Source: Coxiellaceae bacterium
GTDB lineage: Bacteria; Pseudomonadota; Gammaproteobacteria; Coxiellales; Coxiellaceae
Assembly (NCBI GenBank): GCA_030680235.1
Contig: JAUXWQ010000018.1
Location: forward strand, 1 to 24,000
Reading direction: 5' to 3'
Length of the DNA stretch: 24,000 nt
Every line of letters starts with the position of its first letter. Position 1 is the first letter of the stretch. Of the stretch, positions 3,001-6,000 are shown piece after piece. Made by a program: the position numbers.

Positions 3001-6000
3001 GGTTTTGGTGATGCAGTGACACCTGGCCCGGTTGATTCGCAATATCCGGTGTTAATAAAAGAATTTCCTTCGCCACAATTGCAAACTTATCCTGTATATA
3101 CCGTTGTTGCTGAAAAATTACATGCAATCGCTTTTCATGGTGCTGCGAATAGTCGTGTAAAAGATTATCTGGATTTGTTTGTTATTTTTGAACGTGAGCA
3201 ACTTGATCCAAGGTTATTACAAAAAGCAATTACAGCAACATTTGCAAGGCGGGGCAGTGTGATATCAAAAACACCATTGATTGGTCTAACAGATGATTTT
3301 GCAAATAATCCATTAAAACAAACCATGTGGTCTGCATTTTTAAGAAAAAATAAATTGTCAGATAAATCATTTCCTGCTGTTGTCAAAACGTTGCGGGGAA
3401 AATTACAGCCAATTTTGGATGTTGCTATCGTATGAAAAAAAATACAATGAATTAAAAATTATTCTCAGAAAAATATCATGATTCGCTGCCCTGTTTTTCA
3501 ATTTAAAATAACACTAAAAGAAATTGAACCTGTGATATGGAGGCGCATACAAATTTCAATTGCTAGAGATAGCTGATTTATGAGCACCCGTACCCACCCG
3601 GCATAAAAATTACAATAAAACAGCTAAAAATTGAAGAATTCAAATAATTTTTTCAAAATTAAATAGTTGAATATGTTGTCTTTAAAGAATTGTGTGTTTA
3701 GTAATATTAAATGAAATAATTGGGAGGTGTATCAATGAAAGAAATGAATGATAATCCCTCAATCGAATCGAGTGATAATGATTTTCAAAAGGTAAGTAGA
3801 GCGATTCTCAATATAACTGCTGGTGCTATACCTCTTGTCGGTGGTGTTTTAGCTTCTATTTCTGCTGCATGGTCTGAGCATGATCAAGATAGGGTCAATG
3901 ACTTTTTGAGATACCGTCAAAACCTGCTAGAAAAAGAGATAAAGGACCAGTTACAAACCATTAATGAAATCATGCAAAGATTAGAAAAAATCCATGGTGA
4001 CGTCTCGAAAAGAATAAAAAGTTCTGAATTTCAATCATTGGTTGAGAAAAGTTTTCGCAATTGGTCGGATATTAATACTCAAGAAAAAAGAGAGTATATA
4101 AGAAATATACTTTTAAATGCTGCTTCCACAAATATTTCGTCGGATGAAGTAATCAGGCTTTTTATAGAATGGCTTTATCGATATTCCGATTTACATTTTC
4201 AAGTTATTGTCTGTATATATCGGCATCCTGATGGTATTAGTCGTGGTGAAGTGTGGCGAATGATTGGAAAACAGGTTGTCAGAGAGGATTCTGCGGAAGC
4301 TGATCTTTATAAATTATTAATTCGAGATTTAAGTACTGGAGGTATCATAAGACAATATCGTCGAACAAATTCTCAGGGTGGTTTTATTAAACCGAGTGCA
4401 GCGAAATTATCACAACATGCATTTGAGCCAGCATTTGACTCCTCTAAACCATATGTTCTTACTGATCTTGGCCAGCAATTTGTTCATTATGCTATGAGTG
4501 ATGTATCAATGAAATTAGAGCAACAAACAACAAATAGATCTGAGGTTTAATGGTCGGACATTTATAATCAAGGTTAGTTCCTATTTTTGCATCAAAATTT
4601 TTATATTTCTTTTGAGTAGTTATATTATTTTTTACCCCTGTCTCTGTATCAAGCAAGCCTTCAGGCGCAGCTTGAGACAGTGACAGGGGATGCAAGCCCC
4701 TGTTTTATTTAGGTAAGTTATCAGGTTTTTAAGTGACGATAAAGTGACGGCGGCTTTTTTAGACAATAACATCGTTATTTTCTAAAAAAGCCGTTGCAAC
4801 AACAATAGTAGCGGTTCACGTAGTTCAAATAGCATCGCGTGCCATTTAAGCGATGTAAGGCGCAAGCCTTTGGCGTTAAGTTTTCAACTAAAAAAATCTA
4901 ATTAGCCAATTCGGCTTATTCAACAATCAATTAATCAATTTTTTCATTCATATTATTTTAGACAATAGTTGTAGTTCAGGCTGTAATTCATTCTTTTTGT
5001 TAAGTGATAAAAACTTAATTCTTAGTCAGTTAAAGGTATTTTATATTTAGTTAAGTTATTAAAAATATTATTTGGTAATTTTTTACTTCAGCATTTTAGT
5101 ATCCAGGTATTATATTTTTTTTATAAAAAATAGATCATTAGTGTTTAGTTCATTTATCGTTTTTAATTTTATTAATTATATAGGAGGTAATTTTTATGCG
5201 TTAAGTATTCAGGTTTAAATGTAAAAGTTCAATTTTTATCGGTTAATTTGTAAATTTATATGGGAAGTTATTATGAGTCAAATAAATACAGAAAAAAATA
5301 AATCAGTTATTGATAGTTCAGTATTAGATGGTCAAGAAAAGCATTTTATTGAAAATGAGTTATTTGAAAAGCTGTTAGCAGTACGTGAAGAAATTTATTT
5401 AAAAACAGAAATTAATGTATCACCTCGTAAATTAGTCAATATGCTATTAAAAAAATCTGATTTTGAAGCGTTACGTGATCAATTAATTCAGCAATATTCT
5501 TAAAGTTCTACATTATTAGTAAAGTCAAATTTTAAGGTATAGACAATATTTATTGTGTCAAAAAAAGTAGCGTTGGAACCGTAGGTCCCAACGCTAACGG
5601 CGAGCATTCGCCATTGTCGTATGCAGTGTTTTCACTGCTAATTTCGCACTTTTGCAGCGCAAGCTGCCGCCATCAATAGATGGTCTGTGTGCGAACACTC
5701 AACGAGTTTTAGAAAGCGACGCGACACAAGATTTATTAAATAATACACAGAGGAAAATTGATATGTCAGCCAAGCATGATTTAAAACATTCCATTATTCA
5801 TTTAACACGGCACAATAGGGATGGCAGCTTTAAAACACAAGGCAATCGAAAAGAGCGTTTGTTATATATTGCAGATCAATTATCTGAAGGGGGTTATAAA
5901 ATTCAACACATGAGGCAGCTTAAATTCAAACATGTGAAATATTTAGTTGATCGTTGGCTGCAAGAAAATTTAAGCGCTGGCACAATTAAAAATCGCATGA

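What the first reader, a model, noticed from the sequence alone, without database searches (positions are those of the whole stretch)
4551..5272. 720-bp gene-free block packed with same-orientation repeat families and a 19-bp-stem hairpin
No credible ORF exists here, yet the block is highly ordered. There are four about 16-bp units centred on CAGG (4713, 4971, 5096, 5201; the first and last share TAAGT..TCAGGTTT). The heptamer GTTAAGT occurs at 4875, 4999, 5050 and 5200. The 9-mer TAGACAATA occurs at 4760 and 4959 (and again at 5540), and the first two copies share the 12-mer TTTTAGACAATA. AAGTGACG occurs twice in 11-bp phase (4731, 4742). A long near-perfect hairpin lies at 4751-4793, with very AT-rich runs around 5110-5170. 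Direct repeats in one orientation plus an AT-rich segment resemble iterons (oriV), arm-type recombinase sites (attP) or an oriT. The block lies just upstream of a small ORF and a plasmid-type tyrosine recombinase. There is no Rep or relaxase gene in the window, so the function is open. It could also encode a structured non-coding RNA.
Basis: seen in the sequence. Interest (0 to 1): 0.65.

Follow-up and report, generated by a model that had tools for sequence, protein, structure and literature searches.

The report
Likely transfer origin beside atypical relaxase
The gene-free block most likely holds the origin of transfer, and possibly a helper RNA, of a small mobilizable genomic island, because the neighbouring "recombinase" is a relative of the SGI1 relaxase MpsA; this is a new example of a recently recognised kind, and most of the repeats first noticed are incidental.

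Summary
Only its first third is special. Positions 4632-4882 are conserved in every relative. They fold into five hairpins plus a possible pseudoknot, with strong compensatory changes. G-U pairs outnumber A-C by 33 to 5, which points to the + strand as the folded strand. The AT-rich remainder (4883-5170) is neither conserved nor structured.

The neighbouring "plasmid-type recombinase" (5763-6644, PF12834+PF12835) is a homologue of MpsA (hhalign 99.6%). MpsA is the tyrosine-recombinase-like relaxase of Salmonella Genomic Island 1 (MOB_M family). Hairpin 1 (4635-4689) carries the same arms as IR3 of the experimentally defined oriT of SGI1. A GTCAC...GTGAC hairpin lies 400-900 nt upstream of 104 of 124 homologous genes, against about 8 expected by chance.

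SGI1 also needs a small RNA that is transcribed through its oriT towards mpsA. That fits the strand bias, and it fits a second structured element at 5569-5721.

Best reading: this is the oriT region of a MOB_M mobilization module in a tRNA-Pro island, probably with an RNA component. Transfer, nicking and transcription are all untested. It is a new member of a known kind, of moderate interest.

The parts
4632..4882 (+). Conserved structured module A: candidate oriT of MOB_M (MpsA) type, possibly also part of a transfer-related RNA
   Evidence: It is conserved in L001, L081, L082 and L161-L170, while the upstream DNA differs in each. 95% of cells are paired against 35-49% when partners are slid, and 25 pairs have compensatory change. 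MFE is -92.4 kcal/mol, z = -7.2.
4635..4689 (+). Hairpin 1: ACCCCTGTCTCTGT...ACAGTGACAGGGG, counterpart of IR3 of oriT_SGI1 and of the family-wide GTCAC...GTGAC hairpin
   Evidence: Arms are 20 nt, 90% complementary. SGI1 IR3 reads CTACCCCGTCTCTGT...ACAGAGACGGGGTGGAG. The inverted repeat is present upstream of 104 of 124 homologous genes against 8.2 expected, and in 0 of 107 downstream controls. The homology breakpoint lies within about 10 nt of its 5' base.
4682..4712 (+). Terminator-like alternative hairpin (CAGGGG-N7-CCCCTG plus a T-run) that shares CAGGGG with the right arm of hairpin 1
   Evidence: Found by the terminator scan. It is present in only some relatives (window, L081, L165).
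4731..4749 (+). Tandem direct repeat AAGTGACG-N3-AAGTGACG, 11-bp phase; the same GTGAC core as the arms of hairpin 1
   Evidence: Invariant in 8 of 10 aligned relatives, with GATGAC/GGTGAC variants in L169 and L170. Expected 0.02 times in the window. GTGAC tandems recur about 80 nt after the hairpin in GC-rich relatives.
4751..4793 (+).
   Evidence: 11 of 19 pairs have compensatory change, with G-U 15 against A-C 3. No T-run follows the stem, so it is not a terminator.
4791..4814 (+). Hairpin 3, CCGTTGC-N10-GTAGCGG (overlaps the base of hairpin 2 by 3 nt)
   Evidence: Read from alignments A3/A4. It is kept with different sequences in L167 (GTCGTT/AACGAC) and L169 (AGCTGT/ACAGCT). This was read by eye and not scored by a tool.
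4833..4875 (+). Hairpin 4 (CATCGC/GCGATG, loop GTGCCATTTAA), hairpin 5 (AAGGC-GCAA-GCCTT), and a possible pseudoknot between TGCCA 4840-4844 and TGGCG 4871-4875
   Evidence: Helices 4 and 6 are 100% paired, and 5 of 6 and 2 of 5 pairs have compensatory change. The pseudoknot columns are invariant, so they neither support nor refute it. Model R1 finds this motif only in the close subfamily.
4883..5170 (+).
   Evidence: Poorly aligned to L001 and not matched by blastn in L081-L166. Folding z = +1.16. GC is 0.22. GTTAA enrichment.
5181..5205 (+). Strong Shine-Dalgarno sequence plus a two-codon mini-ORF (AGGAGGTAATTTTTATGCGTTAA)
   Evidence: Conserved in the window, L001, L161 and L162 only. Function unknown.
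5273..5503 (+). 76-aa protein gene specific to this subfamily (candidate accessory protein)
   Evidence: Differences are biased to the third codon position (12/9/28 against L001), and the C-terminal 55 aa are conserved. Only 28 homologues were found. The AF2 model is a three-helix bundle with no fold match.
5569..5721 (+). Module B: second conserved multi-hairpin element immediately upstream of the relaxase gene; candidate analogue of the sgm-sRNA core of SGI1
   Evidence: It is more conserved than the flanking coding DNA. The closing helix 5615-5619/5717-5721 has UA-to-CG covariation, and 6 of 18 predicted pairs are compensatory. In SGI1 the sRNA core lies between oriT and mpsA.
5763..6644 (+). 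MpsA-like tyrosine-recombinase-type relaxase (MOB_M), 293 aa
   Evidence: PF12834 + PF12835. Homologues are 293 aa. hhalign against SGI1 MpsA gives 99.6%, E = 1.6e-23, 31% identity. R145, K171, H230, R233 and Y290 are invariant and H281 is nearly so.
6771..6983 (+). HTH_17 (AlpA/Xis-like) small DNA-binding protein; the module's homology ends at its stop codon
   Evidence: Pfam PF12728. Boundary at 6975.
201..1824 (+). tRNA-Pro(GGG) and the adjacent P4-type integrase: the integration module of the island
   Evidence: ARAGORN and Rfam. Phage_integrase + Arm-DNA-bind_3.

Best explanation
The block is the cis-acting part of a MOB_M (MpsA-type) mobilization module. The module belongs to an integrative mobilizable island inserted at tRNA-Pro. 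The island reads: integrase, AbiE toxin-antitoxin pair, an unknown 276-aa gene, [block], a 76-aa gene, the MpsA-like relaxase, and an HTH_17 gene.

The functional core is 4632-4882. Hairpin 1 is a GTCxC/GTGAC inverted repeat equivalent to IR3 of oriT_SGI1. With the two GTGAC direct repeats, it is the inferred binding platform for the tyrosine-recombinase-like relaxase. The hairpins that follow fold in the + strand. The folded molecule would be the transferred single strand, or an RNA transcribed towards the relaxase gene as sgm-sRNA is in SGI1, or both.

After the island excises, the relaxase would cut one strand here. A helper conjugative element would then export that strand.

The AT-rich remainder (4883-5272) is a spacer and promoter/leader region for the 76-aa/relaxase operon.

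What is shown: homology of the protein, conservation, covariation, strand bias and the family-wide hairpin. What is inferred: binding, nicking, transfer, transcription and the position of nic.
For: 1. Protein. The neighbouring gene is an MpsA homologue. MpsA itself hits PF12835 (E = 4e-11). hhalign of A1 against MpsA gives 99.6%, E = 1.6e-23, across the catalytic domain to the C-terminal tyrosine. MpsA with its oriT is experimentally required for SGI1 transfer (PMC6414798). A 2026 preprint names tyrosine-recombinase-related relaxases MOB_M. It reports that they are common in chromosomes and that 96% lie near an integrase.

2. Site. The hairpin 1 arms ACCCCTGTCTCTGT/ACAGTGACAGGGG match SGI1 IR3, ACCCCGTCTCTGT/ACAGAGACGGGG. 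Deleting the right arm of IR3 lowered transfer 40-fold. IR3 starts about 430 nt upstream of mpsA. This matches the 400-900 nt range seen family-wide.

3. Generality. A GTCAC...GTGAC inverted repeat is found upstream of 104 of 124 homologues, against 8.2 expected, and in 0 of 107 downstream controls. In 82 of the 104 the perfect stem is 10-17 bp. The flanking stem bases covary. Plasmid pSIO1 carries the same hairpin, an MpsA-like gene and a coupling protein on 4.9 kb.

4. Structure. 95% of cells are paired against 35-49% when partners are slid. 25 pairs show compensatory change. Covariation is 0.387 against 0.108 or less. G-U 33 against A-C 5 (p = 4e-6; 18 against 5 without helix 2) indicates that the + strand folds. 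Folding z = -7.2.

5. Layout. The conserved unit 4622-6975 (about 2.35 kb) resembles the 2.2-kb mobSGI1 in size and order: oriT, small ORF, RNA, relaxase, small gene.

6. Boundary. Homology starts within about 10 nt of the 5' base of hairpin 1 in five comparisons, and the upstream cargo is unrelated and always co-oriented.
Against: - No experiment exists for this element or for any close relative.
- Beyond hairpin 1, the sequence cannot be aligned to oriT_SGI1. IR1, the most critical SGI1 repeat, has no demonstrable counterpart.
- The layout differs from SGI1. There, oriT sits directly upstream of the sRNA core and mpsA. Here an AT-rich spacer and a real 76-aa gene lie in between.
- No MpsB homologue is present.
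- Hairpin 1 itself shows no strand bias (G-U 2 against A-C 2).
- No conserved promoter precedes module A, so an RNA would need read-through from upstream genes.
- No T4SS or coupling-protein gene is in the window, and no helper is known.
- The right end of the island (attR) was not found.
- The nic site is unknown even in SGI1.
Confidence: 0.68

Rival explanations
1. The block is a purely RNA-level element. Module A, with or without module B, is a structured leader or small RNA that controls expression of the 76-aa/recombinase operon or terminates the upstream genes. On this reading it has no cis-acting DNA role in transfer.
For: - Covariation and the + strand G-U bias.
- GNRA-like tetraloops (GCAA/GAAA) in hairpin 5 and a possible pseudoknot.
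- A terminator-like hairpin at 4682-4712.
- Upstream genes are always co-oriented, so read-through is possible.
- SGI1 does make an RNA across this region.
Against: - Hairpin 1 matches a repeat inside an experimentally defined 125-bp DNA oriT that works in cis on a plasmid.
- The GTGAC core recurs as both inverted and direct repeats, the usual layout of protein-binding DNA sites.
- There is no conserved promoter and no Rfam match.
Confidence: 0.14
2. The block is a site-specific recombination site (att, res or attI-like) for the adjacent tyrosine recombinase. Hairpin 1 would be the core site and the AAGTGAC repeats the accessory sites. The site would serve excision/integration, multimer resolution or capture of the variable cargo upstream.
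For: - The catalytic residues R145, K171, H230, R233 and Y290 are invariant and H281 is nearly so.
- An inverted repeat plus direct repeats is the classic core-and-arm layout.
- There is a sharp breakpoint at the 5' base of hairpin 1, with unrelated cargo on one side.
- Many homologues sit on small plasmids, where a resolvase would make sense.
Against: - No partner copy of the site exists in the window.
- A separate P4-type integrase sits at tRNA-Pro.
- The characterised homologue MpsA acts in transfer, not in integration.
- The loop and stem of hairpin 1 and the top of hairpin 2 change in sequence and length while keeping pairing. That is not expected for a duplex core site with a fixed spacer.
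- pSIO1 couples the gene to a T4SS coupling protein.
- Relaxase-mediated oriT-oriT recombination could also produce the breakpoint.
Confidence: 0.1
3. The block is an ordinary AT-rich intergenic region whose repeats and hairpins arise by chance.
For: For 4883-5170 this holds:
- counts corrected for multiple testing are unremarkable;
- there is no conservation;
- there is no excess structure.
Against: For 4632-4882 it fails: conservation across 57-90% relatives, covariation, z = -7.2, and the family-wide hairpin.
Confidence: 0.03
4. The block is an iteron-type replication origin (oriV).
For: Same-orientation short repeats next to an AT-rich stretch.
Against: - There is no Rep gene in the window.
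- The conserved repeat has only two copies.
- The GTTAA copies are 5 nt long, irregularly spaced and not positionally conserved.
Confidence: 0.02

Closest known systems
mobSGI1 of Salmonella Genomic Island 1: oriT_SGI1 (125 bp, IR1-IR3), mpsA, mpsB and sgm-sRNA (Kiss 2019, PMC6414798; Nagy 2021, PMC9299015)
   Same: - The relaxase is homologous (PF12835; hhalign 99.6%).
- Hairpin 1 corresponds to IR3, with nearly identical arms.
- The cis region lies upstream of the relaxase gene and is co-oriented with it.
- It is an array of inverted repeats.
- The compact module is about 2.2-2.4 kb.
- The element is an integrative mobilizable island with its own integrase.
- There is evidence for a structure on the strand transcribed towards the relaxase gene, as for sgm-sRNA.
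   Different: - The proteins are only 31% identical.
- IR1 and IR2 cannot be aligned.
- The region here is AT-rich overall, whereas the SGI1 oriT is 60% GC.
- The N-terminal PF12834 domain is fused to the relaxase, and there is no separate MpsB.
- A real 76-aa gene and an AT-rich spacer separate module A from the relaxase gene.
- An HTH_17 gene lies downstream.
- Integration is at tRNA-Pro rather than trmE (thdF).
- The helper is unknown.
MOB_M relaxase family and its upstream oriT families, as defined in bioRxiv 10.64898/2026.01.13.699239
   Same: - The relaxase is tyrosine-recombinase-related and usually annotated as an integrase.
- It is chromosomal, lies near an integrase, and has no T4SS genes (the 'iMOB' type).
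- The candidate oriT is in the first intergenic region(s) upstream.
   Different: That study covered six well-studied species. This element comes from an uncultivated low-GC gammaproteobacterial lineage. Whether the protein passes their HMM cut-off could not be tested here.
MobK/oriT of Klebsiella plasmid pIGRK, and TcpM/oriT of Clostridium plasmid pCW3 (PMC8152469)
   Same: - Both are tyrosine-recombinase-like relaxases that need the catalytic tyrosine.
- oriT lies just upstream of the gene and contains inverted and direct repeats.
   Different: According to that paper the three proteins show no significant sequence similarity to each other, and MobK and TcpM lack the core-binding domain. No similarity to their oriTs was tested here.
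Integron attC / attI sites and other tyrosine-recombinase sites that fold in single strands
   Same: - Hairpin 2 has a largely conserved base and a variable, still-paired top.
- The structure is strand-specific.
- Variable cargo lies next to the site.
   Different: - There is no array of repeated sites.
- There is no IntI-type integrase.
- The cargo genes carry no flanking copies of the site.

Membership tests
MOB_M / MpsA-type mobilization module | Relaxase homologous to MpsA (tyrosine-recombinase fold, PF12835) with the catalytic residues intact | tested here: met
   PF12834 + PF12835 on 5652-6644. MpsA hits PF12835 at E = 4e-11. hhalign gives 99.6%, E = 1.6e-23. R145, K171, H230, R233 and Y290 are invariant and H281 is nearly invariant.
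MOB_M / MpsA-type mobilization module | A cis region with an array of inverted repeats, upstream of the relaxase gene and co-oriented with it | tested here: met
   Five hairpins in 4632-4882 on the same strand as the gene.
MOB_M / MpsA-type mobilization module | Sequence relatedness to the experimentally defined oriT_SGI1 | tested here: inconclusive
   The arms of hairpin 1 match IR3 (13-14 nt per arm, one indel). IR1, IR2 and the AT tract cannot be aligned. A distant blastn search of the plasmid collection with oriT_SGI1 found only SGI1-like DNA in a Salmonella record.
MOB_M / MpsA-type mobilization module | The segment confers mobilization in cis, and the relaxase nicks it | not testable with these tools
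   This needs mating assays and nicking assays. The nic site is unknown even for SGI1.
SGI1 family proper (mobSGI1) | A separate accessory protein MpsB encoded just downstream of mpsA | tested here: not met
   The downstream gene is HTH_17. MpsB shows no similarity to it or to the 76-aa protein. MpsB aligns only weakly to the fused N-terminal domain (E = 0.017, probability 2.7%). The element is therefore not filed as SGI1 family.
SGI1 family proper (mobSGI1) | An essential small RNA (sgm-sRNA) transcribed through oriT towards mpsA, with its core between oriT and mpsA | tested here: inconclusive
   There are covarying structures with + strand G-U bias in module A, and a covarying multi-hairpin module B directly upstream of the gene. 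There are no transcript data, no conserved promoter, and no detectable similarity to the SGI1 region.
Integrative mobilizable element (IME) | Own integrase and attachment sites, a mobilization module, and no mating-pore genes | tested here: inconclusive
   An integrase next to tRNA-Pro and the mobilization module are present, and no T4SS or T4CP genes were found. attR was not found.
Tyrosine-recombinase attachment/resolution site (attP, res, attI/attC) | A partner site in the same replicon or element ends that share the core sequence | tested here: not met
   No second copy of hairpin 1 or of the direct-repeat pattern is present in 24 kb. The only other GTCAC...GTGAC matches lie inside the 7424-8365 ORF and the 19984-23916 ORF.
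Iteron-type oriV | Three or more regularly spaced iterons of 17-22 bp next to a rep gene | tested here: not met
   There are two 8-nt copies only and no Rep domain in any ORF.
Any curated RNA family (Rfam 15) | Score at or above the family's gathering threshold | tested here: not met
   Only tRNA-Pro reached threshold in the window. The best hits in 4500-5800 score far below their gathering thresholds, and all are eukaryotic miRNA or snoRNA models except one bacterial sRNA.
Intrinsic terminator (for hairpin 4751-4793) | A GC-rich stem followed directly by a U-run | tested here: not met
   The T6 and A6 runs pair with each other inside the stem, and the stem is followed by TTGCAAC. The terminator scan did not call it.

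The most novel reading that the evidence does not exclude
The two covarying structured elements are module A downstream of hairpin 1 (hairpins 2-5 and the possible pseudoknot) and module B at 5569-5721. They could be domains of an RNA cofactor that the tyrosine-recombinase-like relaxase needs in order to assemble on or process its oriT. This would generalise the unexplained sgm-sRNA requirement of SGI1 to a ribonucleoprotein relaxosome across part of the MOB_M family. Tied to this, the sharp cargo breakpoint at the 5' base of hairpin 1 could mark the strand-cleavage/exchange point, which has never been mapped for this family.
Probability: 0.2. Interest if true: 0.7.

Novelty: new member of a known kind. 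Interest (0 to 1): 0.38.

Why it matters
MOB_M relaxases were recently reported to be the commonest relaxases in the chromosomes of the six species studied. Yet only one of their oriTs in Proteobacteria (SGI1) has been dissected, its nic site is unknown, and the role of its small RNA is unexplained.

This locus and its relatives offer three things:
- A simple signature, the GTCAC...GTGAC hairpin 400-900 nt upstream of the gene. It links the SGI1 oriT to more than 100 diverse islands and small plasmids.
- A covariation-supported secondary structure for the region.
- Candidate positions for cleavage and for an RNA partner.

In practice, many genes annotated as 'phage integrase N-terminal domain' proteins, and plasmids typed 'non-mobilizable', may in fact be mobilizable. 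This includes islands that carry defence genes, such as the AbiE pair here.

Tried and rejected
- DNA similarity of 4400-5800 to plasmid and phage collections: no match.
- Rfam at gathering and at permissive thresholds: nothing credible.
- PDB sequence search with the recombinase profile: no hit.
- Search for attR, as a repeat of the tRNA-Pro 3' half: none, whether exact 10-mers or longer, or 15 of 18 matches.
- Second copy of hairpin 1 or of the direct repeats in the window: none. AGTGACGG at 6998, after the HTH_17 gene, is not conserved in relatives.
- Idea of an RNA-guided tyrosine recombinase in the manner of IS110 bridge RNA: no literature support. The tops of hairpin 2 do not recur elsewhere in the relatives' modules. 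The idea was dropped in favour of the SGI1 analogy.
- Conserved promoter just upstream of hairpin 1: none across relatives.
- Covariance model of hairpins 4-5: it finds only the close subfamily, not SGI1, pSIO1 or the GC-rich loci. No claim is therefore made that this part is family-wide.
- 76-aa protein: no hit in Pfam, NCBIfam or PHROGs. The AF2 model (pLDDT 72) has no PDB fold match. It is unrelated to MpsB.
- oriT_SGI1 against complete E. coli genomes: no match.
The closest genome is a Gammaproteobacteria MAG, CG_4_10_14_0_2_um_filter_38_22.
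Full report
**Observation**

The block runs from the stop codon of ORF 3720-4550 to the ATG of ORF 5273-5503. The hairpin at 4751-4793 has 20-nt arms that are 95% complementary, with a 3-nt loop.

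The repeat statistics do not support a block 'packed' with repeat families once the number of possible words is allowed for. In 1000 dinucleotide-preserving shuffles:
- the highest count of any 7-mer was 5, against 5.5 expected;
- repeated 9-mers numbered 15 against 9.6 (p = 0.12);
- repeated 12-mers numbered 1 against 0.4 (p = 0.24);
- repeated 8-mers showed a mild excess (p = 0.03).

**Surroundings**

The window opens with tRNA-Pro(GGG) at 201-276. The genes that follow are:
- a P4-type integrase (454-1824);
- an AbiEi/AbiEii pair (1976-3435);
- an unknown 276-aa gene;
- the block;
- a 76-aa gene;
- a tyrosine recombinase with PF12834 + PF12835;
- an HTH_17 gene (6771-6983);
- ordinary metabolic genes.

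The recombinase starts at the ATG at 5763, giving 293 aa, the length of its closest homologues. No T4SS, coupling-protein or Rep gene is present.

**Comparative anatomy**

I collected recombinase homologues from genomes, metagenomes and assemblies.

In every relative with a 57-90% identical protein, one unit is conserved. It corresponds to window 4622-6975. Homology begins within about 10 nt of the 5' base of hairpin 1. It ends at the HTH_17 stop codon, or in the relatives that lack HTH_17, just after the recombinase stop.

The DNA to the left is unrelated in each relative. It is always co-oriented and often defence-like: AbiEii, helicases, restriction-modification genes, RES, AAA_15.

Conservation inside the block is uneven:
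- 4632-4882 is highly conserved;
- 4883-5170 is poorly conserved and was not matched by blastn in most relatives;
- the last 100 nt are moderately conserved.

A second non-coding stretch, 5569-5721, lies between the 76-aa gene and the recombinase gene. It is more conserved than the coding DNA around it.

**Structure**

I aligned 4630-4882 with nine relatives. RNAalifold predicts 47 pairs, and 25 of them show compensatory change. I then added a candidate pseudoknot and ran the controls:
- 95.0% of cells are paired, against 35-49% when partners are slid;
- 25 pairs have changes on both sides, against 6-12;
- the covariation score is 0.387, against 0.108 or less;
- 0 of 500 shuffles reach the observed values on four of five measures.

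Its top changes completely in sequence and length yet stays paired.

G-U pairs outnumber A-C mismatches 33 to 5 (p = 4e-6). Without the doubtful helix 2 the count is 18 to 5. The + strand is therefore the one that folds. Hairpin 1 alone shows no bias (2 to 2).

The + strand folds at -92.4 kcal/mol (z = -7.2). The AT-rich part has no excess structure (z = +1.16). No Rfam family matches.

Module B also shows a covarying long-range helix, 5615-5619 with 5717-5721, which encloses small hairpins.

**Identification**

The recombinase family also occurs in 228 plasmid records. In the 4.9-kb Vibrio plasmid pSIO1 the gene is preceded by the hairpin CATGGCGTCACTGG...CCAGTGACGCCATG. It is followed by a 73-aa gene and a T4SS coupling protein. 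That arrangement pointed to mobilization.

The literature describes three tyrosine-recombinase-like relaxases: MobK, TcpM, and MpsA of Salmonella Genomic Island 1.
- For SGI1, a 2.2-kb module carries a 125-bp oriT with three inverted repeats, plus mpsA and mpsB.
- The module also produces an essential small RNA. It is transcribed through oriT towards mpsA, and its core lies between oriT and mpsA.

I retrieved SGI1 DNA using the published oriT sequence. MpsA hits PF12835 (E = 4e-11). It aligns to the window's protein family with 99.6% probability, E = 1.6e-23 and 31% identity, through to the catalytic tyrosine.

IR3 of oriT_SGI1 (CTACCCCGTCTCTGT...ACAGAGACGGGGTGGAG) has essentially the same arms as hairpin 1 (ACCCCTGTCTCTGT...ACAGTGACAGGGG). 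IR3 starts about 430 nt upstream of mpsA.

Across the collected loci, a GTCAC...GTGAC inverted repeat lies 400-900 nt upstream of 104 of 124 homologous genes. Shuffles predict 8.2, and 0 of 107 downstream control regions carry one. The stem bases flanking the core covary. Tandem GTGAC repeats follow about 80 nt later in several GC-rich relatives.

A 2026 preprint names this relaxase class MOB_M. It finds the class abundant in chromosomes, near an integrase in 96% of cases, and often in elements without a mating pore.

**Mechanism proposed**

Shown:
- the protein is an MpsA homologue;
- hairpin 1 corresponds to a functional repeat of the SGI1 oriT and is a family hallmark;
- module A is under selection for a + strand fold.

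Inferred:
- the relaxase binds the four GTGAC elements (two inverted in hairpin 1, two direct at 4731-4749);
- it cuts one strand nearby;
- a helper element's T4SS exports the strand;
- the downstream hairpins act in the transferred strand, or in an RNA like sgm-sRNA, or in both.

The recurrent cargo breakpoint at the 5' base of hairpin 1 could reflect strand exchange at oriT. This is speculation.

The N-terminal PF12834 domain may replace MpsB. MpsB has no homologue here.

**What does not fit**

- Nothing beyond hairpin 1 aligns with oriT_SGI1.
- A spacer and a genuine 76-aa gene separate module A from the relaxase gene. The gene shows third-codon-biased change and has only 28 homologues.
- No conserved promoter precedes module A.
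- The hairpin 4-5 motif is confined to the close subfamily.
- attR was not found.

TAGACAATA and the CAGG units are window-specific.

GTTAA, the core of GTTAAGT, is enriched and always in the + orientation in the spacer of the window, L001/L162 and L163. It is not enriched in more distant relatives. Only the copies at 5200 and 5242 are positionally conserved. These may be operator-like sites in the promoter region of the 76-aa/relaxase operon. This is weakly supported.

**Verdict**

The first third of the block is a real, conserved, structured cis element. It is best read as the oriT region of a MOB_M mobilization module in a tRNA-Pro island, possibly with an RNA component. The rest is spacer.

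The kind is known (SGI1, 2019-2021; MOB_M, 2026). This is a new, divergent member. Its value is comparative: the family-wide hairpin and the covariation-supported fold.

Noticed in passing
window 5569-5721: A second conserved multi-hairpin non-coding element lies directly upstream of the relaxase gene. Its closing helix 5615-5619/5717-5721 covaries. GTGTGCGAACACTCA (5686-5700) is largely invariant: 11 of its 15 positions are identical in all 11 aligned sequences. It occupies the position that the sgm-sRNA core occupies in SGI1.
   Followed up: partly
window 5181-5205: A strong Shine-Dalgarno sequence is followed by a two-codon ORF (ATG CGT TAA). It is conserved in the window, L001, L161 and L162 only. 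It may be a leader or translational-coupling device for the 76-aa gene.
   Followed up: partly
window 4999-5246 and the matching spacers of L001, L162, L163 and L165: GTTAA occurs 3-5 times per spacer. All copies are on the + strand in the window, L001 and L162, and these are the only three spacers whose excess over about 1 expected is clear. L163 has as many TTAAC as GTTAA, and L165 is not significant. Positions are mostly not aligned. There is no enrichment in L167, L169 or L170.
   Followed up: partly
L171 (pSIO1, NC_006860.1) 1366-4819: This 4.9-kb Vibrio plasmid is typed 'non-mobilizable'. It carries the family hairpin, an MpsA-like gene, a 73-aa gene and a T4SS coupling protein. That looks like a complete MOB_M mobilization cassette missed by standard typing.
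   Followed up: partly
L010-L078 (many loci), about 1.3-1.5 kb downstream of the relaxase gene: In many GC-rich relatives a tRNA gene on the opposite strand (Arg, Lys, Met, Ala or Phe) lies about 1.35-1.5 kb after the MpsA-like gene. That leaves room for one integrase gene. The relaxase module therefore often sits at the integrase end of tRNA-inserted islands. In the window it lies 3.8 kb away from the integrase and points away from the tRNA.
   Followed up: partly
L161 1-190: A 79-kb contig begins inside module A, just before the AAGTGAC repeats. This assembly break may reflect variable or repeated DNA at this junction.
   Followed up: no
window 1976-3435 and the upstream regions of L162, L165, L167 and L168: The variable DNA immediately upstream of hairpin 1 is rich in defence-type genes: AbiEi/AbiEii here, and restriction-modification genes, large helicases, RES and AAA_15 elsewhere. 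These genes are always co-oriented with the module.
   Followed up: partly
window 3720-4550, 18355-19908 and 19984-23916: Three sizeable ORFs (276, 517 and 1310 aa) have no significant Pfam hit. The 276-aa ORF also has no NCBIfam hit, and only a marginal PHROGs hit (E = 0.0014).
   Followed up: no
window 4682-4712: A terminator-like hairpin shares CAGGGG with the right arm of hairpin 1, so the two structures exclude each other. It is seen only in the window, L081 and L165. It recalls the terminator-like repeat that limits the primary transcript in SGI1.
   Followed up: no
window 6996-7003: AGTGACGG, the same motif as the tandem repeat, occurs 13 nt after the HTH_17 stop codon. It is not conserved in relatives.
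   Followed up: yes
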